Below, piece after piece: positions 10,438 to 30,965 of a stretch of 64,000 nucleotides of DNA. The first letter of the stretch is position 1, and every line of letters begins with the position of its first letter. The DNA lies in the NCBI GenBank assembly GCA_965219085.1, contig OZ244720.1, positions 1,472,001-1,536,000 of the forward strand, in the 5' to 3' direction. Source of the stretch: Dehalococcoidia bacterium (GTDB taxonomy: Bacteria; Chloroflexota; Dehalococcoidia; UBA2979). The notes beneath the pieces were generated by a model. It was not told the DNA's origin. It ran no database searches and was given only the letters and a program-made list of their open reading frames with translations. The position numbers and the translations under genes are program-made.

Positions 10438-11181
10438 ATGGCCACGGTCGACCTCGTCCTCCCCGTCTACAACGAGGAGGCGATCCTCGAACGCAGCACG
10501 GCGACCGTGCTGGCGTGGACCGAGGCGCACCCCGAGCACGAGTGGCGCATCGTCATCGCCGACAACGCCTCGGTCGACGGCACGCGCGCGATCGCCGAGG
10601 AGCTGGAGGCGCGCCACCCCGGGCGCGTGGCGCTGCTGCACATTCCGGTGAAGGGCCGCGGGATCGCGCTGCGGATCGCCTTCCTGACCTCGCACGCCGA
10701 CGTGTCGGCGTACATGGACGTCGACCTCTCGACCGACATCAAGCACATCCCGGAGCTCGTCGACCCGATCGCGGCGGGCGAGGCGGACATCGCGTACGGG
10801 ACGCGGCTGCACCGCGACTCGGAGACGGCGCGCGGGTTCAAGCGCGAGGCGATCTCGCGGGTGTACGTGCAGATGCTGCGACGGCTGGCGGGACTACGCG
10901 TCACCGACGCGCAGTGCGGCTTCAAGGCGATCAGCCGGGAGGCCGCGCGCGAGCTTGTGCCGCTCGTGGAGGACACGCAGTGGTTCTTTGACTCGGAGCT
11001 GCTGCTGATCGCGCAGGAGAATGGTTACCGGCTACGAGAGGTGCCCGTCCGCTGGATCGAGGATCGGGATAGCCGGGTGGCGATCGTGCGCACCGCGATG
11101 GAGGACCTGCACGGCATCTGGCGGCTACGCCGCGGGGGCGTACCGCGGGTGATGCGCCATCCAGACGCGGACCCTCGCTGA
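10438..11181 (+). CDS. GT2 polyprenyl-phosphate glycosyltransferase (DPG synthase-like)
   Basis: PVYNEE, DNASVDGT, YMDVDLS, DAQCGFK, WFFDSE. Confidence 0.9.
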   Translation: MATVDLVLPVYNEEAILERSTATVLAWTEAHPEHEWRIVIADNASVDGTRAIAEELEARHPGRVALLHIPVKGRGIALRIAFLTSHADVSAYMDVDLSTDIKHIPELVDPIAAGEADIAYGTRLHRDSETARGFKREAISRVYVQMLRRLAGLRVTDAQCGFKAISREAARELVPLVEDTQWFFDSELLLIAQENGYRLREVPVRWIEDRDSRVAIVRTAMEDLHGIWRLRRGGVPRVMRHPDADPR

Positions 11182-11252
11182 TGCCGAACAGCGATTGTGA
11201 TGGCGGGGCGGCCCGGGAGGCCGGTGGGGGCTGGACAACGCCCGGAGTTTCC

Positions 11253-11282
11253 TTGACCTTAGCTCGGGGCCGTCGCTAGGAT
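11253..11282 (+). promoter_or_regulatory. sigma70-type promoter for the Rieske/cytochrome b operon
   Basis: TTGACC-18 nt-TAGGAT. Confidence 0.55.
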
Positions 11283-11384
11283 CGCCGCGGTCTGAACGCC
11301 GCCTGTGCGTCCCGGCCCATGGTCACGCTCGGACGGTCGTCATACCGGAGGCCGCCGGGCGCGAGGCGAACATTGAGGTGCCAG

Positions 11385-11492
11385 ATGATCTTCGGTGAAG
11401 TCGGCGAGGCGATGGAGCTGAGCATCATCTTTGTCCTCATGGCGGCGGCGTTGGCCGCTATCGTGGTTCTCGGGAAGTGGTGGGAGGCGTAG
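11385..11492 (+). CDS. 35-aa single-TM microprotein (not in ORF track)
   Basis: GAGGTG RBS then MIFGEVGEAMELSIIFVLMAAALAAIVVLGKWWEA*. Confidence 0.65.
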   Translation: MIFGEVGEAMELSIIFVLMAAALAAIVVLGKWWEA

Positions 11493-11574
11493 CGCGCCGA
11501 TCGCGCTCGCACGTTGGAGGCGTTTGCCGCGCGCCTGATCGCGGCAGCTAGAGGACCAAACCGAAAGGGGCGGG

Positions 11575-12330
11575 ATGGCAACCACCGAACGTCCCCAGGG
11601 ACAGGCGATCGTTGATCGCGCCTACGAGTTCCTCGTCAACAACCGGGTGTGGAAGTCCATCTTCCGCATCGGGTACCCGAACACGCCGCGCAACCAGATG
11701 CTCGCGGTGGCCACCAACGTCTTCCTGCACCTCCACCCTACCCGCGTGCACCGCACGCACGTCAAGATCACCCACACCTACTGCCTCGGCGGGCTGTCGT
11801 TCTTCCTGTTCCTGGGGCTGACCATCACAGGCGTGCTGCTGATGTTCTACTACGTGCCCTCCGTCGAACGCGCATACGCGGACATGCAGGCGCTGCAGAC
11901 GGACGTGCGCTTCGGGATGATGCTGCGCAACACGCATCGATGGATGGCGCACGGCATGGTCATCACCGTGATGCTGCACATGATGCGCGTCTTCTACACC
12001 GGCGCGTACAAGCCGCCGCGCGAGTTCAACTGGGTCGTCGGCGTGATCCTGCTCGTGCTGACGCTGCTGCTCTCGTTCACCGGCTACCTGCTGCCGTGGG
12101 ACGAACTCGCCTTCTGGGCCATCACCGTCGGCACCAACATGATCGGGTCCGACCCCATCCTCGGCGACCTCAACCAGTTCGTGATGATCGGCGGCTTCGA
12201 GGTGGGACAGAACGCCCTGATCCGCTTCTACACGCTGCACGTTATCGCGTTGCCGCTGGCAGCCGCGATCTTCATGGCCGTGCACTTCTGGCGAATCCGC
12301 CGTGACGGCGGCCTCGCGCGGCCGCTGTAG
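11575..12330 (+). CDS. cytochrome b6-type N-terminal cytochrome b subunit
   Basis: [41 protein letters not shown]; ends GGLARPL. Confidence 0.93.
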
Positions 12331-12342
12331 GGGAGGACGGCG

Positions 12343-13278
12343 ATGGTAGCCGAAGCACCTGCTCCCGCCTCTGCGCGCCAACGCGGCGCGATGCCGAGCG
12401 TGCGGCCTCGCCGCCAGCGCGAAGAAGAGCTGCTCGTCTGGCCGGACCTGGTCTTCGTCGAGTTCATCGCGTCGCTGATCTTCACGCTCACGTTCGTGGC
12501 GCTGGCGATCCTCATTAACGCGCCGCTGCAGGACCGCGCAAACCCGGCGAACACGCCGAACCCGTCGAAGGCGCCGTGGTACTTCCTGAACCTGCAGGAG
12601 CTGCTGATCCACATGCACCCGGCGCTCGCCGGCGTGATTGTGCCGACGGTCTTCCTGGTGCTGCTCGCCGCCGTGCCCTACTTCGACACCTCGCAAGAGG
12701 AGCAGGGCCGCTGGCTCGCGACGCCGCGCGCGTGGCCGAACATGCTCATCGGCTTGGCCGTGGGGTTCGTCGGGACGTGGTCGCTGATCGTCTACGACTC
12801 GGGCAAGCACATCGTGCTGTACGAGCGATTCTCCGTGCAGGGCAGCGCGTTCAGCGTATGGCCGCCGTTCATGGCGGAGGAGAACGTGCGGACGTGGCCG
12901 GAGGCGCTGGCCTGGCTGAGAAGCGTGCGCGCCCTCCAGACCGATATTAACTGGAACAACGACCTCACGGGTGTCCCGCTCGGTGAGACGTTCATCCGCA
13001 CCGACTTGCTGGGGCTGCCACGAGGCAGCATCCGATGGAACATCCCGGCGTGGATCGTCGAGCAGGCCATCCCGCTCGGCTTCATGATCGGGCTGCCGAT
13101 TCTGCTCTCACTGGTCGCGTGGCGGACCGGGCTGGCGAGGACGCGGCGCGATCACATGATCCTGATCTTCTCGGGATGGTTCGCGTCGTGGCTGGTGCTG
13201 ACCGTTGCCGGCACGTACTTCCGGGGCGCCGGGCTGGAGTTGCTCTGGCCGTGGGATGTGTTCCCGGCAGAATCGTAG
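12343..13278 (+). CDS. subunit IV-like cytochrome b C-terminal subunit, extended
   Basis: WPDL, ANPANTPNPSKAPWYFL; extra loop and helices; C-terminal GTYFRG..WPW. Confidence 0.85.
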   Translation: MVAEAPAPASARQRGAMPSVRPRRQREEELLVWPDLVFVEFIASLIFTLTFVALAILINAPLQDRANPANTPNPSKAPWYFLNLQELLIHMHPALAGVIVPTVFLVLLAAVPYFDTSQEEQGRWLATPRAWPNMLIGLAVGFVGTWSLIVYDSGKHIVLYERFSVQGSAFSVWPPFMAEENVRTWPEALAWLRSVRALQTDINWNNDLTGVPLGETFIRTDLLGLPRGSIRWNIPAWIVEQAIPLGFMIGLPILLSLVAWRTGLARTRRDHMILIFSGWFASWLVLTVAGTYFRGAGLELLWPWDVFPAES

Positions 13279-13334
13279 AGAGTCAAGCGATCGCCGTGCG
13301 GTGGGATGACTCACCGCGCGCGAGGAGCGTCTGA

Positions 13335-13997
13335 GTGACGAGCGAGACAGAGACCGCCGAGCAGGTAACCGATGCCTGGCGTGAGGCTATCGCCGCACGT
13401 CGCATCCAGGTGGCCGAAGGGCAGGCGCTCCCAGGCGCCCAGGTCAGCCGCCCGGCGCGAGACGAGATCACGCGCCGCAACTTCGTCCGCCTGGCCTTCT
13501 GGTCCGGCCTCGGGCTGACGCTGCTCGGCAGCGTCGCCGCGACGCTGGACTTCCTCTACCCGCGCGGCATCAAGGGCTTCGGTGGTCCCGTCCCGGCGGG
13601 CAAGGCGTCCGAGTTCCCCCGCGGCGGGAACCCGCAACACAACATCATCGGGCAGTTCTGGCTCGTCAATCTCGACCCCGCGGAGTCGCGGCCCGGCGGG
13701 AGTGGCGGCGGCGAAGGGCTGCTCGCGCTCTGGCACCGCTGCCCGCACCTCGGCTGCACGGTTCCCTGGCGGTCGGGCTTCTCGTACGGGGGTGACCAGG
13801 GCTGGTTCCGCTGCCCGTGCCACGGCTCCACGTACACCAAGTCGGGCATCCGCGTGTTCGGCCCCGCGCCGCGCTCGATGACCACGATGAAGGTGGACAT
13901 CGACGACAGTGGCAATATCACCGTGCAGACGGGCGACCGCCTGGCGGGCAGTCCGACCAACCCCGAACGCGCGGTCCCGCACCCGACGCTGACGTAG
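13335..13997 (+). CDS. Rieske 2Fe-2S subunit with Tat anchor
   Basis: ITRRNFV Tat motif; CPHLGC and CPCHGS boxes; GPAPR. Confidence 0.93.
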   Translation: MTSETETAEQVTDAWREAIAARRIQVAEGQALPGAQVSRPARDEITRRNFVRLAFWSGLGLTLLGSVAATLDFLYPRGIKGFGGPVPAGKASEFPRGGNPQHNIIGQFWLVNLDPAESRPGGSGGGEGLLALWHRCPHLGCTVPWRSGFSYGGDQGWFRCPCHGSTYTKSGIRVFGPAPRSMTTMKVDIDDSGNITVQTGDRLAGSPTNPERAVPHPTLT

Positions 13998-14035
13998 ACC
14001 GGCGCGACTCAGGGCATCGCTGAGCCGGAGGTGAG

Positions 14036-15226
14036 ATGAACACCAGCAAGCAGGTCAACGTGATGATCGGGCTGCTGTTCGTCACCTTCGTCGTGATCGT
14101 CGGCTACTTGTTCAACGAGTCCACCCGCCTGGTGGTGGAGACCGAAGAGATCACGCACCGCAACGCCGAGCGTGGCGCGCGGCTCTTCGTCGCGAACTGT
14201 CGCACCTGTCACGACCTCGAAGGCACCGGCGGCATCGGCGCGGCCATCAACAACAAGGCGTTCTGGATCTTCGAGGAAGACAACGCCCACGGCCTGCCCG
14301 CCACGCCCGAGGGCGAGGCGGCAGCCATCCGCAAGTACATCCGCGAGACCATCGAGTGCGGCCGGCCCGGCACGTACATGCAGACGTGGTCGCAGCGCTT
14401 CGGCGGTCCGCTCTCAGACACGCAGGTCAACCACCTCGTGACACTGCTGACCAACGACCCGACCGGCAAGTCGGACTTCTGGCACCTTGTCGTCGAGGAG
14501 GGCGAACACGCCGACGAGGAGCAGTTCGCGGCGGTGCTCGAGAAGGAACTCGCACTCGTGGCGGCCCTGACGGAGCAGCTCGGACGAGAGCCCACCGAAG
14601 AGGAGCTCGCCGCCTACACGGAAGAACTGACCGCCAGCGAGCAGATCGGGAGCGTCGTGGAGCGCTACGGCCGCCACCCGACGACGGAGGAGATCCGCGC
14701 GCGCAGCCAGGAGATAACGGTCGTCCTCGACCCGACCGCGCTGACGGTCAACACCGAGTCGTGCGGTAACTGGCATCCGGACACGAAGGCTGAGTTCCGC
14801 GCCCGCGACCCGTTCGCCACGGAGGCCACGGTCGCGACTACCGAAGACGATGACGATGCGCCCGAGCCGACGCCGACGGTTGAGATTGCCGACGTCGACG
14901 CGACCGTGGTCGTCGAGATGACGGAATGGGACATGATCGTCGACCAGCCGCTGCCGGCCGGCGTCGTCGGTTTCCAGGTCCAGAACGTCGGCGCCGTGGC
15001 GCACGAGTTCAAGGTCATCCGCAGCGACGTCGCTGCCGACGGCCTCACGCTCGAGGGCGGCAAGGCCAACGAAGGCGGCCTCGAGATCCTCGCGGCAATT
15101 ACCGAGTTCCAGGGCGGCGCGACGCAGACGACAGCACTTGAGCTGACGCCCGGCCAGTACTTGCTGTTCTGCAACATCCCCGCGCATTACCAGCTCGGTA
15201 TGGCCGTCTCGGTCACGGTGGAGTAG
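14036..15226 (+). CDS. membrane-anchored cytochrome c fused to a C-terminal cupredoxin domain
   Basis: N-terminal TM; CRTCH plus distal Met (GTYMQTW); C-terminal AHEF...YLLFCNIPAHYQLGM. Confidence 0.88.
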   Translation: MNTSKQVNVMIGLLFVTFVVIVGYLFNESTRLVVETEEITHRNAERGARLFVANCRTCHDLEGTGGIGAAINNKAFWIFEEDNAHGLPATPEGEAAAIRKYIRETIECGRPGTYMQTWSQRFGGPLSDTQVNHLVTLLTNDPTGKSDFWHLVVEEGEHADEEQFAAVLEKELALVAALTEQLGREPTEEELAAYTEELTASEQIGSVVERYGRHPTTEEIRARSQEITVVLDPTALTVNTESCGNWHPDTKAEFRARDPFATEATVATTEDDDDAPEPTPTVEIADVDATVVVEMTEWDMIVDQPLPAGVVGFQVQNVGAVAHEFKVIRSDVAADGLTLEGGKANEGGLEILAAITEFQGGATQTTALELTPGQYLLFCNIPAHYQLGMAVSVTVE

Positions 15227-15332
15227 CGACGAGGAAACACACACGACGGGGACGCGACCGGACACCGGGAGCCCTCGCAACGCAGGCAACATAGAGGCGA
15301 CCGCGGGAGCGGCGCCGGCGGAGGGGAATCAC

Positions 15333-15449
15333 ATGGCAGTTGAGACCGGCAAGCGCTACCGCTGCAACACCTGCGGCGCCGAGTTCATCGTGACCCGCGG
15401 TGGCGACGGCGCGCTCAAGTGCGGCGACGACGAGCTCGAGCAGATCTAG
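15333..15449 (+). CDS. 38-aa desulforedoxin-like microprotein (not in ORF track)
   Basis: GGAGGGG RBS; MAVETGKRYRCNTCGAEFIVTRGGDGALKCGDDELEQI*. Confidence 0.75.
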   Translation: MAVETGKRYRCNTCGAEFIVTRGGDGALKCGDDELEQI

Positions 15450-15460
15450 GGGGCGCGAAG

Positions 15461-15604
15461 ATGACCGTAGCACTGGGCAAGCGATACCGCGACGATTCGT
15501 CCGAGGTCGAGGTGCTCTGCATCAAGCCAGGCGAGTGCAGCCTGAACGTCGACGGCCGCGGCATGGAAGAGCTGCAGCCGAAGGTCCTGCCTTCCGCCGA
15601 CTAG
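15461..15604 (+). CDS. 47-aa paralogous microprotein
   Basis: MTVALGKRYRDDSSEVEVLCIKPGECSLNVDGRGMEELQPKVLPSAD*; shares GKRYR with the upstream gene. Confidence 0.72.
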   Translation: MTVALGKRYRDDSSEVEVLCIKPGECSLNVDGRGMEELQPKVLPSAD

Positions 15605-15698
15605 TCCTGCCTTCGGCAGACGCTCACGAGCGCGCGGCCTCATTGTCGCGCGCTTGTTTCGTGTCCGCGGCGCGAGCCCACTCGCTGCGGTTCGCTCG

Positions 15699-17237
15699 AT
15701 GACCCCCCGCGAATCGCCGCCGCCCGAGCCGCTGCTCATCGAGGCGCGCGTGCTCGTGCCCGACGGCCCCTCGCTGCGCCACGCCCACGCTGCGCTCGCG
15801 TGCGCCGCCGGCAGCATCGTCGCCCTCGGCACGCTCGACGCCTGCGCGCGGGCGCTGCCCGGGACGCCTCGCCGCATCGTCGCGCCCGAGGCGTACGTGC
15901 TGCCCGGCTTCATCGACGCGCACGTCCACGTACTGGCTGCCGCGGCGGCCGAGGCGGGGGTCGACTGCTCGCCGCGCGCCGTGTCCAGCATCCCCGAGCT
16001 CCTGGGTGTCATCGCGCGCGCGGCGGCGGAGCGCCCGCCCGGGGCGTGGGTGCGTGCCCACGGCTACGAGGAGACGATGCTCGCCGAGCGCCGCCACCCG
16101 ACGCGCGCCGAGCTCGACGCGGCCGCGCCGCACCAACCCGTGCGGCTCACGCACCGCTCCGGGCACGCCGAGGTGCTGAACTCGCGTGCGCTCGCCCTCG
16201 TCGGCATCGACGAGTCGGTGCCGGAGCCGCCGGGCGCGGCCTTCGGGCGCTCGCTCGAGGACGGACGGCTCGACGGGCTGCTGCTCGGCATGGCCGAGCG
16301 CCTCGAGGCGGCCATGCCGCCGCCAAACCGCGCGGCAGTCGCTGTTGCCGTGGGTGCGTGGGCGCACGCACAACTCGCCGAGGGCGTGACGACTCTTGTC
16401 GACGCTGGGCCGCGTAACGGCCCCGCGGAGTGGGAAACGCTCGCCGCCCTCGCGTCCGGCGGCACGCTCCCGCAGCGGCTCGTGGTGATGGAGGGCGCCG
16501 ACTACCTCGGCGAGTTGCCCGAGCAGGCCATCGGCGGTCGCGTGCTGCGCGGCGAGGTGAAGCTGCAGCCGCGCGTGCTCGAAGGCGACGCCGTCAGCGT
16601 CAAGGCGCTCACGGACGTCGTGCGGCGGGCCACCGCTGTCGGCCGTCGAATCGCCGTGCACGCGCCGACGGTGGAGTCGGTGCAGGCCGCGCTCGACGCG
16701 TTCCGCGCGGCGGGCGACCCGCGCGGCCACCGGATCGAGCACGCGCCGCTGCTGCCGCGTGGACTCGTCGAGGAGATCGCGGAGGCTGGAATCGCCGTCG
16801 TCGCGCAGCCCGGACTGCTCGCCGAAGTGACGCCACGCTACGAACAGCTGCTCACGCCTGGGGAGCGCGAACGCCTCCACCCGTGGCGCGACTTGCTGGA
16901 CGCGGGCGCGCCGCTCGCGTTCTCATCGGATGCACCGGTGAGCCGGTCCGGGCCGCTCGCGGCGAGCGCCGCGGCGTCTACGGCGCGCCCGGCGACACTC
17001 GCGCCGGAGCAGGCGCTGCGACCGCTGGAGGCGCTGGCGGCGTGGACCTCGGGCGCGGCGGCGGTGTGTGGCCTGGACCGTCTCGGGCGGCTGGAGCCGG
17101 GGCAGGCCGCCGATCTCGTGCTGGTCGAGGGGCCGGTGGAGTCGGACCCCGGGGCGTGCCGGGTGCTGGCCACCGTAGTCGGGGGCGAGGTGGTGTACGC
17201 CGCGCCGGACATCGAGATGGACGCCCCTCCTGTTTGA
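15699..17237 (+). CDS. YtcJ-like metal-dependent amidohydrolase
   Basis: PGFIDAHVH, HRSGH, AVHA, HRIEHA, SSDAP, GRLEPGQAADLV. Confidence 0.85.
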   Translation: MTPRESPPPEPLLIEARVLVPDGPSLRHAHAALACAAGSIVALGTLDACARALPGTPRRIVAPEAYVLPGFIDAHVHVLAAAAAEAGVDCSPRAVSSIPELLGVIARAAAERPPGAWVRAHGYEETMLAERRHPTRAELDAAAPHQPVRLTHRSGHAEVLNSRALALVGIDESVPEPPGAAFGRSLEDGRLDGLLLGMAERLEAAMPPPNRAAVAVAVGAWAHAQLAEGVTTLVDAGPRNGPAEWETLAALASGGTLPQRLVVMEGADYLGELPEQAIGGRVLRGEVKLQPRVLEGDAVSVKALTDVVRRATAVGRRIAVHAPTVESVQAALDAFRAAGDPRGHRIEHAPLLPRGLVEEIAEAGIAVVAQPGLLAEVTPRYEQLLTPGERERLHPWRDLLDAGAPLAFSSDAPVSRSGPLAASAAASTARPATLAPEQALRPLEALAAWTSGAAAVCGLDRLGRLEPGQAADLVLVEGPVESDPGACRVLATVVGGEVVYAAPDIEMDAPPV

Positions 17238-27506: not shown

Positions 27507-28934
27507 GTGGTCAGCAGCCGGCCGGCGCAACTCCGGCCGGACACCCGGCCCCCGGTCGGCGGGCTGCCCCCGCATGACATCGCCGCCGAGGAGGCCGTGA
27601 TCGCGGCCCTCCTCCTCGACGAGGAAGCCTACCCTCGCGTCGTCCCGATCCTGCGGCCCGGGGACTTCTTCCGCGAGCAGAACCAGTGGTGCTTCGAGGC
27701 CTGCGTTGCCCTCGCCGACCGTGGCGAGACGATCACGCACCCCACCGTCACCCACGAGCTTGAGCGCGCCGCTCGCCTCGACGCGTCCGGTGGCGAACCC
27801 TACCTGTTCGAGCTCACCGGCAAGCACTTCACCGCCGAGGGCGTCGAGGCCCACGCGCGCATCGTCGCGCGCGACTCGCTGTACCGGCGGATGATCGCCG
27901 TCGCGGGACAGATCGCGCAGGTCGCGTACGCGGGTGGTCCGGACGCCAGCGCCGTGCTCGCCCAGGCCGAGGCGCTGCTGCTCACGATCCGCTCCTCTGA
28001 GTCCGCCGGCGACTTCCGCGCGCTGCGCGACCTGCTCGACGAGTTCCTCGAAGACCCCGGCGAGGCGGTCGAGGGCGTGCTCGTCAGCGCCGTGCGCACC
28101 GGCTTCATGGACCTCGACGCGCTGCTCGGCGGCTTCAAGCGCGGCGACCTCGTGATCGTGGCGGCGCGCACCGGCGTCGGGAAATCGTCGCTGCTGCTCA
28201 ACTTCGCGCGCAACGCGGCGGTCGGCCAGCACGGCACGGTCGCGTTCTTCGCCCTCGAGATGTCCGCCGACCAACTCGCGATGCGGCTGCTGTCCGCCGA
28301 GGCGGATGTCGACGCGACACGGCTGCGGCTCGGCACGCACAACGAGGACGAGGAGTCGCGCATCATGCACGCCATCGGCGCGCTCGGCGAGGCCGGCGTC
28401 TACATCGACGACTCGGCGGTGCTGAGCGTGCCGGAGATCCGCGCGAAGTGCCGGCGCTTGCAGGCCGAGCACGGCCTCGACCTCGTCGTTGTCGACTACC
28501 TGCAGTTGCTGCACTCGGCGTCACTCGGCGGTGAGAACCGCGCGTCCGAGCTGGGCAAGATCACGCGCGCGCTGAAGGAGACGGCGCGCGAGCTCGATGT
28601 GCCCGTGATCGCCGCCGCACAGCTCTCGCGCGCGGTCGAGGCGCGCACGCCGCACATCCCGATGCTGTCCGACCTGCGCGAGTCCGGCTCGATCGAGCAG
28701 GACGCCGACGTGGTGATGTTCATCTACCGCGAGGATGTCTACCGCACCCCCGAGGAGTGGCAGGACGAGCACCCCGACGACCCCGGCGGCCAGCACCCGA
28801 CGGGCCTCGCGCAACTGATGGTGGCCAAGCATCGCAACGGCCCGACGGGCACCGTGACCGTGCGCTTCCGCGACCGCACGGCGTCCTTCCAGGACCTCGT
28901 GCTGCGCGAGCCGCCGCCCGGGTTCGACGAGTGA
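27507..28934 (+). CDS. dnaB: replicative DNA helicase
   Basis: PPHDIAAE, AARTGVGKS, VVDYLQL, QLSR, DLRESGSIEQDAD, KHRNGPTG. Confidence 0.96.
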   Translation: MVSSRPAQLRPDTRPPVGGLPPHDIAAEEAVIAALLLDEEAYPRVVPILRPGDFFREQNQWCFEACVALADRGETITHPTVTHELERAARLDASGGEPYLFELTGKHFTAEGVEAHARIVARDSLYRRMIAVAGQIAQVAYAGGPDASAVLAQAEALLLTIRSSESAGDFRALRDLLDEFLEDPGEAVEGVLVSAVRTGFMDLDALLGGFKRGDLVIVAARTGVGKSSLLLNFARNAAVGQHGTVAFFALEMSADQLAMRLLSAEADVDATRLRLGTHNEDEESRIMHAIGALGEAGVYIDDSAVLSVPEIRAKCRRLQAEHGLDLVVVDYLQLLHSASLGGENRASELGKITRALKETARELDVPVIAAAQLSRAVEARTPHIPMLSDLRESGSIEQDADVVMFIYREDVYRTPEEWQDEHPDDPGGQHPTGLAQLMVAKHRNGPTGTVTVRFRDRTASFQDLVLREPPPGFDE

Positions 28935-29689
28935 CCTCCGAACGCCCACGCGAGGGGCGCCCGATCGAAGGCCCGCCGTTCGAGGGGTTCGTCGCGGGGG
29001 GCGCGGCGACCACGCTGCCCTCGCAGTTCTTCGTCGAGCTGCTGCCGCGCATCGACGACGAGGCGGAGCTGCGCGTCACGCTCTACGTGCTCTACGCGAT
29101 CGGGCGCAGCCGGGGCCCGCTGCGCGCCGTCCGCGCCTCGCAACTCGCGACTGAGGAGCCGCTGCGGCACACCCTCGCAGGCTGCGGGGGCGACTCTGCG
29201 CTCGCGCAGGCCATCGCGCGCGCCGCCGCACACGGGAGCCTGCTCACGCTCGCGCTCGAAGACGGCGACACGCTGTGCTTCGTGAACAACGAGGCCGGAC
29301 GCCGCAGCCTCGACCGCGTGCGGTCGGGCGCGACGCCGCTGCCCGGCGGCGCGCGGCTGGCCGCGCCGCACGGGGAGCCCGGCGGCGTTGGGCTCCGCGA
29401 GCCGGCACGGGTGTACGAGCAGGAGATCGGGTTACTCACGCCCTCGACCTCCGAGGCGCTGGCCGAGGCCTGCGAGCGCTACCCGGAGGACTGGGTGACG
29501 GACGCGCTGCGAGAAGCAGCGCGCAACAACGCCCGCTCGTGGGCATACGTGGAGGCGATCCTTCGCCGCTGGGATCGCGAGGGTAAGGACGATGGAACCA
29601 GGAGTACGCGGGATGCGTCCGCTCAAGGAGCTGCTGCTCGCGCAGCGCGCGATCACGGCCCGTACGAACGCGTCATCCGCCGCAGCTAG
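28931..29689 (+). CDS. DnaD domain protein
   Basis: FFVELLPRIDD.AELRV; C-terminal YEQEIG..WV.DAL.EA..NNARSW.YV..IL.RW; GTGA overlap. Confidence 0.85.
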   Translation: MTSERPREGRPIEGPPFEGFVAGGAATTLPSQFFVELLPRIDDEAELRVTLYVLYAIGRSRGPLRAVRASQLATEEPLRHTLAGCGGDSALAQAIARAAAHGSLLTLALEDGDTLCFVNNEAGRRSLDRVRSGATPLPGGARLAAPHGEPGGVGLREPARVYEQEIGLLTPSTSEALAEACERYPEDWVTDALREAARNNARSWAYVEAILRRWDREGKDDGTRSTRDASAQGAAARAARDHGPYERVIRRS

Positions 29690-30965
29690 CGTCCCGGCCG
29701 CCTCGCGCGAGCCGGTGTGCGCCGAGTGCGGGGGCGCGCGCTTCGTGCGTGTGACCGCGGCCATCGACGACCCCAACTTCGGTCGCGCCGTGCCGTGCAG
29801 TTGCGCGCGCGCGGAGGACGAGGCGGAGCGGCGCGCGCGCCTGCTTCGCTACTCACGGCTCGGCGCCCTCGAACGCTTCACGTTCGAGACCCTGCTGCCG
29901 CAGGGCCGGTCGAGCGACGCGCGGGCGCGCGAGCGCTACGCCGTCGCCGTCGAGGCGGCGCGACGCTTTGCCGAGCAGCCCGAGGGCTGGCTGGTGCTCA
30001 GTGGCGTGCCCGGCTGTGGCAAGACCCACCTCGCAGCCGCCATCGTCAACCGCGCGATCGAGCGCGGCAGCCCCGCGCTCTTCTTCACCGTCGCGGACCT
30101 GCTCGACCGCCTGCGCGCCTCCTACGACGACGACGCGGAGTTCGCCTACGACCGCCTCAGCGAGCACCTGCGAGCCGCGCCGCTGCTCGTGCTCGACGAC
30201 CTCGACGGCTACTCGGAGACGGCGTGGGCGCGTGAGAAGTTCGTACAGCTCGTCTCGCACCGCTTCCACGCCGCACTGCCGACGGTCTTTACCTCGATCA
30301 CCGCGCCGGAGGATGTCGACGGTCGCCTCGGCGCGAGGCTCAGCGACCCGTCACTCGTGCAGCAGTTCGTGCTGGAGGAGCCGCCGCGGCAGCACTTCAC
30401 CGCGGTAGGCGGGATGACACCGGATCGCCTCCCGGCATTCAGCTTCGAGGCGTTCCGCCCAGGCGGCCACGGCCTCCGGGGCGAAGCGAGGCGCAACCTC
30501 GAGGCGGCGTTCCGTCTCGCCCGCAGGTGGGCCGACCAGCCCGCAGGTTGGCTCGTGCTGCTCGGCGCGAACGGCACCGGCAAGACCCACCTCGCCGCGG
30601 CCATCGCCTCCCACCGCGTCGAGGCGGGTGACCGCGTCGCCTTCGCGACGGTGCCCGACCTCCTCGACGAGTTGCGCGCGACGTTCGACCCAGAGTCGGG
30701 CGAACGCTTCGACACCGTGTTCGGCCGCCTCCGCGACGTGGACCTGCTGATCCTCGACGACCTCGGCGCGCACCAGTCCAGCGGGTGGGCGCAGGAGAAG
30801 CTGTACCAGCTGCTCAACTACCGCCACCTCGGCCGGTGCCCGACCGTCGTCACGAGCGACCTCGAGCTCACGAAGCTGGAGCCGCGCATCGCCTCGCGGC
30901 TGGGCGACCTACAGGTGGCGACGGTCTACGAGTTGCGCGTGCCCGACTACCGCATGGGGTCATAA
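29592..30965 (+). CDS. DnaC/IstB-like helicase loader with two AAA+ domains
   Basis: CAEC..CSC Zn site; GVPGCGKT/LVLDDL and GANGTGKT/LILDDL. Confidence 0.88.
   Translation: MEPGVRGMRPLKELLLAQRAITARTNASSAAASVPAASREPVCAECGGARFVRVTAAIDDPNFGRAVPCSCARAEDEAERRARLLRYSRLGALERFTFETLLPQGRSSDARARERYAVAVEAARRFAEQPEGWLVLSGVPGCGKTHLAAAIVNRAIERGSPALFFTVADLLDRLRASYDDDAEFAYDRLSEHLRAAPLLVLDDLDGYSETAWAREKFVQLVSHRFHAALPTVFTSITAPEDVDGRLGARLSDPSLVQQFVLEEPPRQHFTAVGGMTPDRLPAFSFEAFRPGGHGLRGEARRNLEAAFRLARRWADQPAGWLVLLGANGTGKTHLAAAIASHRVEAGDRVAFATVPDLLDELRATFDPESGERFDTVFGRLRDVDLLILDDLGAHQSSGWAQEKLYQLLNYRHLGRCPTVVTSDLELTKLEPRIASRLGDLQVATVYELRVPDYRMGS

What the first reader, a model, noticed from the sequence alone, without database searches (positions are those of the whole stretch)
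11253..15604. Self-contained b6f-like respiratory complex operon in an apparently non-phototrophic, Chloroflexota-like genome
Seen: promoter, then a 35-aa TM peptide, split cytochrome b, subunit IV, Tat Rieske, cytochrome c-cupredoxin fusion and two metal-binding microproteins. The cytochrome b has YCLGG, and its second His pair is separated by 14 residues ([18 protein letters not shown]). Known: the split b/IV arrangement, the heme ci Cys and the 14-residue spacing are b6f/b6c signatures. Inference: this is a b6f analogue carrying its own small subunit and a tethered copper carrier. The non-phototrophic lifestyle is assumed, not shown here.
Basis: partly seen in the sequence, partly recalled or inferred. 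Interest (0 to 1): 0.78.

Follow-up and report, generated by a model that had tools for sequence, protein, structure and literature searches.

The report
Respiratory b6-type complex with tethered copper carrier
This is a conserved operon of non-model Chloroflexota bacteria for a cytochrome b6f-like quinol-oxidising respiratory complex whose electron-output subunit carries its own tethered blue-copper domain, a module that close relatives have swapped for a second haem domain.

Summary
Window 11253-15604 (+ strand) holds a promoter-like site and seven same-strand genes. They are a 35-aa transmembrane peptide, a split cytochrome b6 (YCLGG, 13/14-residue His spacings), a 311-aa subunit IV, a Tat-type Rieske protein, a membrane-anchored cytochrome c with a C-terminal cupredoxin, and two paralogous desulforedoxin-like miniproteins.

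The window comes from a Dehalococcoidia genome. The gene order recurs in the 80 related loci fetched wherever the contigs reach far enough.

The cytochrome b is b6-type, but the Qo motif is APWY, not PEWY or PDWY. It just passes NCBIfam's ExtP cut-off. The Rieske protein is closest to the anammox Rieske proteins. Subunit IV has five helices, as modelled for anammox complexes. The complex therefore belongs to the published, biochemically uncharacterised "APWY clade" rather than to b6f or b6c proper.

New here:
- The micro-subunit is almost universal among the relatives.
- The cupredoxin is auracyanin-like.
- The C-terminal carrier module varies: cupredoxin in 39, a second haem in 9 and none in 18 of 66 complete genes. 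The window's lineage sits inside a dihaem clade.
- The second miniprotein ends in an invariant QPKVLPSAD tail but has lost its metal ligands.

Verdict: a new variant of a known kind. Function is inferred, not shown.

The parts
11253..11282 (+). Sigma-70-like promoter candidate (TTGACC, 18 nt, TAGGAT)
   Evidence: It is the only consensus match in 10900-16000, with 0.3 expected. It sits in an invariant block of about 50 nt shared with L001-L003. Transcription start was not tested.
11385..11492 (+). pep35: a 35-aa single-helix micropeptide with an acidic N-terminus (EVGE-x-xEL), about 18 hydrophobic residues and a GKWWEA C-terminus. It is the candidate small subunit.
   Evidence: GAGGTG lies just before the ATG. 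Third-position bias of substitutions is 76/38/159. A micro-ORF ending 7-111 nt before cytochrome b is present in 79 of 80 loci: 74 by strict motif and 5 variants read by eye, with L065 lacking it. No Pfam match at E<=10, including PetG/L/M/N.
11575..12330 (+). Cytochrome b6-type subunit (251 aa, four helices). Haem ligands are H121/H135 and H222/H237. Cys70 in YCLGG is the haem ci site. A conserved N-terminal extension of about 45 aa carries H52.
   Evidence: PF00033 E 1.3e-45. NCBIfam ExtP 294.8 vs cut-off 290; b6 PRK03735 208 vs 325. Best solved relatives are b6 of b6f at 174 bits, against about 110 bits for bc1 cytochrome b. C70, L71, G72, G73 and the four His are invariant in 28 sequences.
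12343..13278 (+). Long subunit IV (311 aa) with Qo motif APWY (residues 77-80). It has helices E, F and G, a variable outer insert, and two extra helices, giving five TM helices.
   Evidence: PF00032 covers residues 66-131 only. ExtQ 53.5 vs 150; b6f subunit IV 18 vs 127. A77, P78, W79 and Y80 are invariant in 28 sequences. The AF2 model (pLDDT 65.7) has helices 26-58, 93-114, 130-153, 234-262 and 268-292.
13335..13997 (+). Rieske [2Fe-2S] subunit with a Tat signal/anchor (TRRNFVRL), CPHLGC and CPCHGSTY
   Evidence: PF00355 E 1.3e-8. Best solved relatives are 9rk3_A and 9rk4_A (anammox Rieske proteins), then b6f PetC. CPHLGC occurs in 69 of 71 and CPCHGSTY in 70 of 71 related genes.
14036..14902 (+). 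Cytochrome c subunit, N-terminal part. It contains a TM anchor, a class I cytochrome c domain (C55-R-T-C-H59), an acidic helical insert, a conserved SCGN motif (C243) and an acidic/Pro-Thr-rich tether.
   Evidence: PF13442 28.4 vs 27; PF00034 23.3 vs 21.3. C55, C58, H59, C108 and M115 are invariant, and C243 nearly so, in 14 sequences. Residues 1-275 match the dihaem sister-group protein at 60% identity.
14903..15226 (+). Auracyanin-like type 1 copper (cupredoxin) domain fused to the cytochrome c subunit. Ligand candidates are H323, C379, H384 and M389.
   Evidence: PF00127 21.6 vs 21.2 for the domain alone. The four ligand positions are invariant in 6 sequences. The best sequence matches in PDB are auracyanins 6kol and 1ov8, though weak (E 0.008 and 0.044). 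The AF2 model (pLDDT 80.3) gives auracyanins as the top Foldseek matches: 6kol (E 5.7e-6, TM 0.62) and 1qhq.
15333..15449 (+). zr1: a 38-aa desulforedoxin-like miniprotein with Cys11, Cys14 and Cys30 (3 of the 4 ligand positions)
   Evidence: PF06397 26.9 vs 23. It is conserved next to the cytochrome c gene, and is fused to zr2 in 9 loci (L037, L041-L044, L059, L060, L067, L074).
15461..15604 (+). zr2: a 47-aa paralogue of zr1 without the metal ligands, ending in the invariant tail QPKVLPSAD
   Evidence: No Pfam or NCBIfam match. P40-D47 are invariant in 23 sequences, while the Cys4 set is kept only in L056, L058, L062, L063 and L068. The profile finds 1124 proteins, and every name shown in the top 120 is 'hypothetical protein'. 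zr1 and zr2 are both present in 59 of 64 loci with enough downstream sequence.

Best explanation
The operon encodes the complex III of an aerobic-type respiratory chain in a Dehalococcoidia bacterium. It is a dimeric Rieske/cytochrome b6-type quinol oxidase running a Q cycle.

Proposed mechanism, all inferred from homology:
- Quinol is oxidised at a Qo site formed by cytochrome b6 and the APWY loop of subunit IV.
- One electron passes through the two b haems, and probably a covalently bound haem ci on Cys70, to a quinone at the inner site.
- The other electron goes to a high-potential-type Rieske cluster (CPCHGSTY), then to the membrane-anchored monohaem cytochrome c.
- From there it goes to an auracyanin-like copper domain hanging on an acidic, Pro/Thr-rich tether of about 45 residues on the same polypeptide.
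- The tethered domain acts as a built-in mobile carrier that delivers electrons to a terminal oxidase encoded elsewhere.

Shown here: the genes, their motifs, their family relations, their conservation as a block, and the modular exchange of the carrier domain among relatives.

Inferred: cofactor content, direction of electron flow and the acceptor. Also inferred is that the 35-aa peptide is a peripheral transmembrane subunit, analogous but not homologous to PetG/L/M/N. The zr1/zr2 pair is taken to be a cytoplasmic accessory, either a peripheral subunit or an assembly factor, that docks through the invariant zr2 tail.
For: Family assignments:
- Cytochrome b: PF00033 E 1.3e-45, ExtP 294.8 bits, and best solved relatives b6 of b6f.
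- Subunit IV: PF00032.
- Rieske: PF00355, with anammox and b6f Rieske proteins as best solved relatives.
- Cytochrome c: PF13442 and PF00034.
- Cupredoxin: the four ligands are invariant and the auracyanins are top by both sequence and fold.

Motif conservation:
- C70-L-G-G and the four haem His are invariant in 28 of 28 sequences.
- APWY is invariant in 28 of 28.
- CPCHGSTY occurs in 70 of 71.

Operon evidence:
- All genes are on one strand with gaps of 11-106 nt.
- The order pep35-b-IV-Rieske-c is present in all 71 of 80 loci whose contigs extend past subunit IV.
- pep35 is in 79 of 80 loci and zr1+zr2 in 59 of 64.

Carrier modularity:
- Of 66 complete cytochrome c genes, 39 end in a cupredoxin, 9 in a second CxxCH domain and 18 in neither.
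- Pfam supports the cupredoxin in 9 of 12 motif-positive full-length proteins, and in 9 of 9 C-terminal domains of the LysM type tested alone, 3 of them above cut-off.
- On a tree of b+IV+Rieske (67 rows), the window, L002 and L003 form a cupredoxin clade nested in a 12-row clade whose other 9 rows are dihaem (supports 99, 99, 95, 100). The dihaem sister-group protein matches the window protein over residues 1-275 only.
- Swapping haem for copper at the same position argues that the module is an electron carrier.

Context: the operon sits among purine-synthesis and ribosomal genes, as expected for a housekeeping respiratory complex.
Against: - There is no biochemical or expression evidence of any kind.
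- The Qo motif lacks the acidic residue. Kao and Hunte (PMC4122944, sections 13 and 21) state that no APWY complex had been characterised and suggest that such complexes run in reverse.
- No terminal oxidase lies in the window or was looked for in the genome, so the acceptor is unknown.
- The cupredoxin call rests on borderline Pfam scores (18.8 and 21.6 vs 21.2), weak PDB sequence E-values (0.008) and a model built from 6 sequences.
- Among 57 distant cytochrome b relatives plus the window, only 6 of 58 have Cys at the haem ci position. Haem ci is therefore not a general trait of the nearest family, and its attachment here is untested.
- The subunit IV model is of modest confidence (pLDDT 65.7).
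- Nothing shows that pep35, zr1 or zr2 are physically part of the complex. Five of 64 loci lack zr1/zr2.
Confidence: 0.7

Rival explanations
1. The complex works in reverse or in a specialised branch, as proposed for other APWY-clade complexes. The tethered cupredoxin would collect electrons from a high-potential periplasmic donor and feed them through the Rieske centre, pushing electrons uphill into the quinone pool or to a cytoplasmic acceptor at the expense of proton-motive force.
For: - The APWY motif and the published suggestion that APWY complexes run in reverse (PMC4122944, sections 13 and 21).
- The closest solved Rieske proteins belong to anammox complexes proposed to make NAD(P)H (PMC12954380, abstract and sections 3.3 and 4).
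- The cytochrome b passes the ExtP model, whose namesake sits in a selenite/tellurite-reduction operon.
- Desulforedoxin-like proteins next to the operon could be a cytoplasmic acceptor in relatives that keep Cys4.
Against: - The operon holds no substrate-oxidising enzyme, multihaem cytochrome or NAD(P) reductase, unlike the Geobacter and anammox clusters.
- It sits in a housekeeping neighbourhood.
- It is conserved across many Dehalococcoidia lineages.
- zr2 has lost its metal ligands in most lineages, including this one.
Confidence: 0.12
2. The core complex is as described, but zr1/zr2, and perhaps pep35, are not parts of it. They would be merely conserved neighbours, for example small zinc-ribbon regulators or chaperones unrelated to respiration.
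For: - zr1/zr2 have no TM segment or signal peptide.
- They are absent next to the operon in 5 of 64 loci.
- In L010 they lie 2.6 kb from the cytochrome c gene.
- No library gives zr2 a function.
Against: - zr1 and zr2 follow the cytochrome c gene in 59 of 64 loci across deep divergence, while the further downstream gene changes. An amidohydrolase is present in 11 of 80 loci at that position (L002-L005, L007, L008, L056, L057, L061, L063 and, by a short reverse-strand hit elsewhere, L031).
- pep35 ends 7-111 nt before cytochrome b in 79 of 80 loci and shows purifying selection.
Confidence: 0.3
3. The cupredoxin domain is not an electron carrier. It would be a copper-handling or structural domain, for example copper delivery to an oxidase, or a docking domain.
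For: Pfam scores are borderline. One third of relatives do without any second domain (18 of 66).
Against: - All four type 1 ligand positions (His, Cys, His, Met) are invariant.
- The nearest folds are the electron carriers auracyanin and azurin.
- The same position holds a cytochrome c domain in the sister lineages. That fits a redox carrier and not a chaperone.
Confidence: 0.05

Closest known systems
APWY-clade Rieske/cytochrome b complexes (Kao and Hunte 2014; Geobacter ExtO/P/Q type; Kuenenia anammox R/b complexes)
   Same: - Split cytochrome b with a CxGG Cys and an APWY Qo motif (PMC4122944, sections 13 and 15).
- Cytochrome b scores above the ExtP cut-off.
- The Rieske protein is nearest to Kuenenia Rieske proteins with Ser/Tyr-type high-potential boxes (PMC12954380 abstract).
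- Subunit IV has five helices, as in the anammox models (PMC12954380, section 3.3).
   Different: - The motif is YCLGG rather than the WCMGG reported as usual for that clade.
- ExtQ scores 53.5 against a cut-off of 150.
- The operon has no multihaem cytochrome, rhodanese or NAD(P) reductase genes.
- Instead it has a monohaem cytochrome c with a tethered cupredoxin, a 35-aa peptide and the zr1/zr2 pair.
Cytochrome b6f complex of cyanobacteria and chloroplasts (PetB, PetD, PetC, PetA, PetG/L/M/N)
   Same: Four-helix b6 with the Cys of haem ci in the identical YCLGG context, and 13- and 14-residue His spacings. Separate subunit IV, a Tat-type Rieske protein and a small single-helix subunit.
   Different: - No cytochrome f; a class I cytochrome c takes its place.
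- APWY rather than PEWY.
- Subunit IV has five rather than three helices.
- pep35 matches none of the Pet small-subunit families.
- The b6 model score is below cut-off (208 vs 325).
- The copper carrier is fused, not a soluble plastocyanin.
Firmicute and heliobacterial b6c / bc complexes (QcrABC; Pet of Heliobacterium)
   Same: Non-oxygenic b6-type complex with haem ci and a class I cytochrome c as acceptor. The haem ci motifs are as cited in PMC4122944, section 15.
   Different: In Bacillus the cytochrome c is fused to subunit IV, and the Qo motif is PDWY (PMC4122944, section 9). Here the cytochrome c is a separate gene with its own anchor, and the motif is APWY.
Alternative complex III with auracyanin (Chloroflexus, Roseiflexus)
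   Same: Same phylum. The output carrier is an auracyanin-type, membrane-held blue copper protein. PMC5826079 names auracyanin as the typical acceptor of ACIII.
   Different: The quinol oxidase here is a Rieske/cytochrome b complex, not ACIII. The copper domain is covalently fused to the complex rather than a separate lipid- or helix-anchored protein.
Actinobacterial bcc complex (dihaem QcrC) and caa3 oxidases: built-in carriers
   Same: The idea of replacing a soluble carrier with a domain fused to the complex. The dihaem relatives (9 of 66) resemble QcrC in having two class I domains. PMC4505504 and PMC8523172 were seen as search listings only.
   Different: No homology is claimed. Here the second domain hangs on a long tether and is a cupredoxin in most lineages. 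Cytochrome b is split and b6-type rather than the long actinobacterial QcrB (110 vs 500 bits).

Membership tests
Cytochrome b6f complex | Split cytochrome b: four-helix b6 plus separate subunit IV | tested here: met
   Two adjacent genes match PF00033 and PF00032.
Cytochrome b6f complex | Cys of the CxGG motif for covalent haem ci, and 14 residues between the helix D His ligands | tested here: met
   YCLGG aligns with FYCLGG of spinach b6, and H222/H237 are in register. The motif is invariant in 28 sequences. Haem attachment itself was not tested.
Cytochrome b6f complex | PEWY Qo motif in subunit IV | tested here: not met
   APWY, invariant in 28 sequences.
Cytochrome b6f complex | Cytochrome f (PetA) as the c-type subunit | tested here: not met
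   The c-type subunit matches class I families PF13442 and PF00034 only.
Cytochrome b6f complex | Small subunits PetG, PetL, PetM and PetN | tested here: not met
   pep35 gives no Pfam match at E<=10. The resemblance is in size and topology only.
Cytochrome b6f complex | Curated b6 and subunit IV models reach their cut-offs | tested here: not met
   PRK03735 208 vs 325; TIGR01156 18.1 vs 127; PetC NF045928 59.3 vs 250.
Firmicute b6c complex (QcrABC) | Subunit IV fused to a cytochrome c domain; PDWY motif | tested here: not met
   Subunit IV (311 aa) has no CxxCH, cytochrome c is a separate gene, and the motif is APWY. The defining features are taken from PMC4122944, section 9.
APWY clade / ExtP-ExtQ type complexes | APWY Qo motif with split cytochrome b carrying CxGG | tested here: met
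   The clade definition is from PMC4122944, sections 13 and 15.
APWY clade / ExtP-ExtQ type complexes | ExtP and ExtQ equivalog models reach their cut-offs | tested here: inconclusive
   ExtP 294.8 vs 290 (met, narrowly). ExtQ 53.5 vs 150 (not met).
APWY clade / ExtP-ExtQ type complexes | Ext or anammox operon context (multihaem cytochromes, rhodanese, or NAD(P) reductase module) | tested here: not met
   None of these are among the operon's seven genes or the flanking genes.
APWY clade / ExtP-ExtQ type complexes | Placement inside the clade on a labelled cytochrome b tree with b6f, b6c, ExtP and anammox references | not tested
   No labelled reference sequences could be obtained. The nearest named clusters are Anaerolineae, Planctomycetes and Acidimicrobiales.
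Auracyanin / type 1 blue copper proteins | His, Cys, His and Met ligands in a cupredoxin beta-sandwich | tested here: met
   H323, C379, H384 and M389 are invariant in 6 sequences. The model is all-beta at pLDDT 80.3. The top folds are auracyanins 6kol and 1qhq.
Auracyanin / type 1 blue copper proteins | Copper bound, blue spectrum, redox activity | not testable with these tools
   Needs protein.
Desulforedoxin-like domain (PF06397) | Fe(Cys)4 site: CxxC plus adjacent CC | tested here: not met
   zr1 passes the Pfam cut-off (26.9 vs 23) but has only C11, C14 and C30. zr2 has none of the four positions. Full Cys4 is kept only in L056, L058, L062, L063 and L068.

The most novel reading that the evidence does not exclude
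The complex may be a b6-type enzyme with a second, cytoplasmic electron port.

The cytochrome b carries an N-terminal extension on the inner side with a histidine, H52 in N-x-F-L-H-L-H-P. This His is conserved in 56 of 58 distant relatives, almost as well as the four haem ligands. It could be the counterpart of the histidine that AlphaFold3 models of anammox complexes use to bind an extra haem at the dimer interface next to haem ci (PMC12954380, section 3.3).

The zr1/zr2 pair forms rubredoxin-like Fe(Cys)4 proteins in deep-branching relatives. It is fused into one protein in 9 loci and always ends in QPKVLPSAD. This pair would dock there and pass electrons to or from haem ci.

Together with the exchangeable copper/haem output module, this would make the Dehalococcoidia enzyme a natural, genetically simple model for the long-debated inner-side electron entry into b6f-type complexes.
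Probability: 0.1. Interest if true: 0.85.

Novelty: new variant of a known kind. Interest (0 to 1): 0.52.

Why it matters
Rieske/cytochrome b6-type complexes with haem ci outside phototrophs are known mainly from sequences, and none of the APWY type had been characterised as of the 2014 survey (PMC4122944).

This operon gives a compact, widely conserved example in an abundant but little-cultured bacterial class. More than 540 related genomic stretches were found.

Its output subunit shows evolution swapping a haem carrier for a copper carrier at the end of the same tether. This is a hard-wired version of the plastocyanin/cytochrome c6 choice.

It also points to three unannotated microprotein families as candidate subunits or assembly factors: pep35, zr1 and zr2. 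zr2 alone has at least 1124 sequence clusters, all 'hypothetical' where named.

If a cultured relative such as a member of Tepidiformaceae carries the same operon, as the fetched loci suggest, the predictions are directly testable.

Tried and rejected
- **Complex prediction:** cytochrome b + subunit IV + zr2 as partner gave 'no answer' (score 0.00, mark 0.32, controls not run). It says nothing either way about binding.
- **Subunit IV fold:** a Foldseek search of the subunit IV model against PDB gave no match at E<=0.001. The top hits were unrelated receptors, because the model is of modest confidence (pLDDT 65.7). A subunit IV profile (A3) against PDB sequences gave 0 hits at E<=0.01.
- **Stand-alone relatives of the cupredoxin domain:** only 2 proteins turned up among 8 candidates. 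One is a 146-aa protein at 41% identity, so the donor of the module was not identified.
- **zr2:** the ESM Atlas search gave only unnamed clusters. Pfam at E<=10 gave nothing for pep35 or zr2.
- **Labelled phylogeny:** a cytochrome b tree against b6f, b6c, ExtP and anammox references could not be built, because no labelled reference sequences were obtainable. HMM scores, PDB ranks and cluster names were used instead.
- **The 57-aa reading of the first ORF (from 11319):** rejected. Only the last 35 codons are conserved and preceded by a ribosome-binding-like GAGGTG.
- **Literature:** searches for a published description of this architecture found none. The library lacks most subscription journals.
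- **Sources not reached:** supplementary file 1 of PMC4122944 could not be searched.

Full report
**What is there**

ORF listing and family scans show, on the + strand between 11253 and 15604:
- a promoter-like site;
- a 35-aa hydrophobic peptide (11385-11492);
- a 251-aa cytochrome b (11575-12330);
- a 311-aa subunit IV homologue (12343-13278);
- a 220-aa Rieske protein (13335-13997);
- a 396-aa cytochrome c with a C-terminal cupredoxin (14036-15226);
- two miniproteins, zr1 (15333-15449, 38 aa) and zr2 (15461-15604, 47 aa).

Intergenic gaps are 11-106 nt. The promoter-like match is the only one in 10900-16000, with 0.3 expected. It lies in an invariant block of about 50 nt shared with the three nearest relatives. 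That is modest evidence, because those genomes are very close.

The window is about 70% G+C. The 43 other window ORFs scanned include purine-synthesis, ribosomal, DnaB and SecY genes, with no oxidase or phototrophy gene.

**Whose genome**

Of these, 540 were confirmed as relatives and the best 80 were kept, at 73-98% identity. Nearly all are titled Dehalococcoidia, Tepidiformaceae or Chloroflexota MAGs. Non-phototrophy is not shown by 64 kb.

**Conservation of the block**

tblastn of each window protein against the 80 loci finds cytochrome b and subunit IV in 80 of 80. Rieske and cytochrome c are found in 71 of 80; the other 9 contigs end within or just after subunit IV. The order is always the same. 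A family-2 glycosyltransferase lies upstream in 52 of 80 loci by my count of that table.

The micropeptide is found by tblastn in 55 of 80 loci. A motif scan finds a micro-ORF ending in G-[KRQHN]-[WYF]-W just before cytochrome b in 74 of 80. Five more loci have obvious variants (FGAWW, FGRIW) when read by eye, and L065 has none.

Against the 11 relatives with an ungapped full-length match, substitutions fall 76/38/159 on codon positions 1/2/3. The sequence upstream of the ATG is unconserved. pep35 is therefore a real gene under purifying selection, starting at 11385 and not 11319.

zr1 and zr2 are both present in 59 of the 64 loci that have a complete cytochrome c gene and at least 700 nt beyond it. 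They are lacking in L036, L039, L045, L054 and L040.

**The core is b6-type, of the APWY kind**

- The cytochrome b aligns to spinach b6 from residue 62 to 249. Its YCLGG sits on the FYCLGG that carries the haem ci cysteine, and all four His ligands are in register.
- Solved b6 chains score about 174 bits, against about 110 for bc1 cytochromes b.
- C70, L71, G72, G73, H121, H135, H222 and H237 are invariant in 28 relatives.
- The NCBIfam ExtP equivalog scores highest and just passes (294.8 vs 290). The b6 model does not pass (208 vs 325).
- Subunit IV has APWY where b6f has PEWY, invariant in 28 sequences.

Kao and Hunte (PMC4122944; sections 9, 13, 15 and 21 read) defined exactly such an 'APWY clade'. 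It has split cytochrome b with CxGG and is drawn from Deltaproteobacteria, Chloroflexi, Nitrospirales, Planctomycetes, deep Actinobacteria and Symbiobacterium. They noted that none had been characterised and suggested reverse operation. They report WCMGG as the usual motif there. The Dehalococcoidia clade instead has the cyanobacterial/heliobacterial YCLGG.

A HMMER search of 1.84 billion cluster representatives gave 8290 hits at E<=1e-3. The nearest named clusters are Anaerolineae, Planctomycetes and Acidimicrobiales. Among 57 representatives spanning residues 40-240 plus the window, only 6 of 58 have Cys at the haem ci position. The haem ci signature is thus a trait of this clade rather than of all near relatives.

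**Rieske and subunit IV**

The Rieske protein has a twin-arginine motif and the boxes CPHLGC (69 of 71 relatives) and CPCHGSTY (70 of 71). The Ser and Tyr are the hydrogen-bond donors that established work on bc1 and b6f links to high midpoint potentials.

Its best solved relatives are 9rk3_A and 9rk4_A, ahead of b6f PetC. By their molecule names, these appear to be the two Kuenenia Rieske proteins measured at +303 and +335 mV (PMC12954380, abstract and discussion passages read).

Subunit IV has three canonical helices, a variable outer insert of roughly 80-180 residues and two further conserved helices (alignment). The AF2 model has pLDDT 65.7, with helices 26-58, 93-114, 130-153, 234-262 and 268-292. 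A five-helix subunit IV is also what the AlphaFold3 models of both anammox complexes show (PMC12954380, section 3.3). That feature is therefore not new.

**The output subunit is modular**

The alignment of 14 cytochrome c subunits shows the following layout:
- a conserved N-terminal anchor (MNTxKQ plus a helix);
- a class I domain (NCRxCHG ... TIxCGRxGTxMPxW);
- a variable insert;
- a conserved [ST]-C-G-[QN] motif;
- a low-complexity tether;
- a variable C-terminal module.

Two non-haem cysteines, C108 (invariant) and C243 (nearly so), may form a disulfide that pins the insert. This is inference only.

The insert is an acidic helical stretch in the window. In all 4 of the 4 proteins of 520-630 aa that were scanned, it is 3-5 LysM repeats.

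Of 71 loci with the gene, 5 are truncated. Of the 66 complete genes:
- 3 end in a C-x4-H-x4-M cupredoxin like the window's;
- 36 end in a C-x2-H-x2/3-M cupredoxin;
- 9 end in a second CxxCH domain;
- 18 end in neither (motif-based).

Pfam supports the cupredoxin in 9 of 12 motif-positive full-length proteins. It also supports it in 9 of 9 C-terminal domains of the LysM type scanned alone, 3 of them above the PF00127 cut-off.

The window's domain has all four type 1 ligand positions invariant in 6 sequences. Its best PDB sequence hits are auracyanins, though weak (E 0.008 and 0.044). Its AF2 model (pLDDT 80.3) has auracyanins 6kol (E 5.7e-6, TM 0.62) and 1qhq as the top Foldseek matches, followed by laccase domains and azurins.

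**A haem-to-copper swap**

A maximum-likelihood tree was built from concatenated cytochrome b, subunit IV and Rieske (67 rows; quick search, SH-aLRT support only). It puts the window with L002 and L003, all cupredoxin, inside a 12-row clade whose other 9 rows are dihaem. Supports for the nested branches are 99, 99, 95 and 100.

The four module states need only 4 changes on the tree, against a shuffled mean of 27.6. The dihaem protein of the sister group matches the window protein at 60% identity over residues 1-275 and not beyond. With the root anywhere outside the three-row clade, the simplest reading is that a second cytochrome c domain was replaced by an auracyanin-like domain on the window's branch.

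Caveats: the tree has no outgroup, two long branches (L062, L068) lie elsewhere in it, and the states are motif-based.

**The miniproteins**

zr1 and zr2 are paralogues. In L056, L058, L062, L063 and L068 both keep CxxC...CC. Elsewhere zr1 keeps three Cys or fewer, and zr2 keeps none at the ligand positions. In 9 loci (L037, L041-L044, L059, L060, L067, L074) the two are one fused ORF.

The last eight residues of zr2 (PKVLPSAD) are invariant in 23 of 23 aligned sequences, and the preceding Q is nearly so. The family has at least 1124 clusters at 90% identity. Every name shown is 'hypothetical protein', from Chloroflexota or Dehalococcoidia records.

Invariance of the tail, loss of the metal site and the fusion all suggest a heterodimeric structural accessory that docks by its tail. 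Whether it docks on this complex is open.

**How it most likely works**

See Best explanation. Shown: gene content, motifs, family relations, conserved linkage and module exchange. Inferred: cofactors, forward Q-cycle operation, delivery by the tethered copper domain to a terminal oxidase, and the roles of pep35 and zr1/zr2.

The main rival is reverse or specialised operation, as proposed for other APWY complexes. The lack of any substrate-oxidising partner in the operon and the housekeeping context speak against it here, but only physiology can decide.

**Novelty**

The kind is known: non-phototrophic b6-type Rieske/cytochrome b complexes, the APWY clade, and five-helix subunit IV. I found four things described nowhere in eight full-text searches (the library lacks most subscription journals):
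- the conserved micro-subunit;
- the cytochrome c with tethered cupredoxin and its exchange with a haem domain;
- the LysM-bearing forms;
- the linked desulforedoxin-like pair with an invariant tail.

Ward et al. (PMC5826079, Table 1 and passages read) listed 'neither' bc nor ACIII for Dehalococcoidetes as known in 2018. Hence: a new variant of a known kind, of moderate interest.

Noticed in passing
window 11725-11734 (cytochrome b residues 51-54, H52): A fifth histidine, in N-x-F-L-H-L-H-P on the inner-side N-terminal extension, is conserved in 56 of 58 distant cytochrome b relatives. That is almost as well as the four haem ligands (58, 58, 58 and 57 of 58), whereas the haem ci Cys is in only 6 of 58. 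It may correspond to the His that binds a predicted extra interfacial haem in anammox complex models (PMC12954380, section 3.3). The equivalence was not checked.
   Followed up: partly
L029, L032, L047, L070 (cytochrome c subunit genes, e.g. L029:9305-11131): In Tepidiformaceae-type relatives the insert between the cytochrome c domain and the cupredoxin holds 3-5 LysM (peptidoglycan-binding) repeats, in proteins of 520-630 aa. A respiratory subunit with cell-wall-binding repeats is unusual and unexplained.
   Followed up: partly
window 14357-14359 and 14762-14764 (C108 and C243 of the cytochrome c subunit): Two cysteines outside the CxxCH motif are invariant (C108) and nearly invariant (C243, in [ST]CG[QN]) across all carrier types. 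They may form a disulfide closing the variable insert. In the 'monohaem-only' relatives the protein ends shortly after this motif.
   Followed up: no
L037, L041-L044, L059, L060, L067, L074 (e.g. L037:11024-11317): zr1 and zr2 are fused into a single ORF of about 95-100 aa in these 9 loci. This is a gene-fusion hint that the two miniproteins act together.
   Followed up: partly
L010:3668-6282: In this locus about 2.6 kb are inserted between the cytochrome c gene and zr1, against 39-529 nt in the other loci. The content of the insert was not examined.
   Followed up: no
window 10438-11181: A family-2 glycosyltransferase (PF00535 E 6e-26) lies directly upstream of the operon. By my count of the table, it is found at that position in 52 of 80 related loci. 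The reason for the linkage is unknown.
   Followed up: no
one search hit list (P0155, P0158, P0159, P0161, P0173, P0174 and others): Many of the nearest cytochrome b cluster representatives are 390-650 aa long, although the match covers only about 230 residues. Related lineages therefore seem to have unsplit or otherwise fused forms. Some may be mis-called or fragmentary metagenome ORFs.
   Followed up: no
window 29592-30965: A 457-aa ORF next to DnaB (27507-28934) shows two DnaC/IstB-like AAA+ helicase-loader matches, at residues 117-252 and 296-437. It may be a tandem-domain loader.
   Followed up: no
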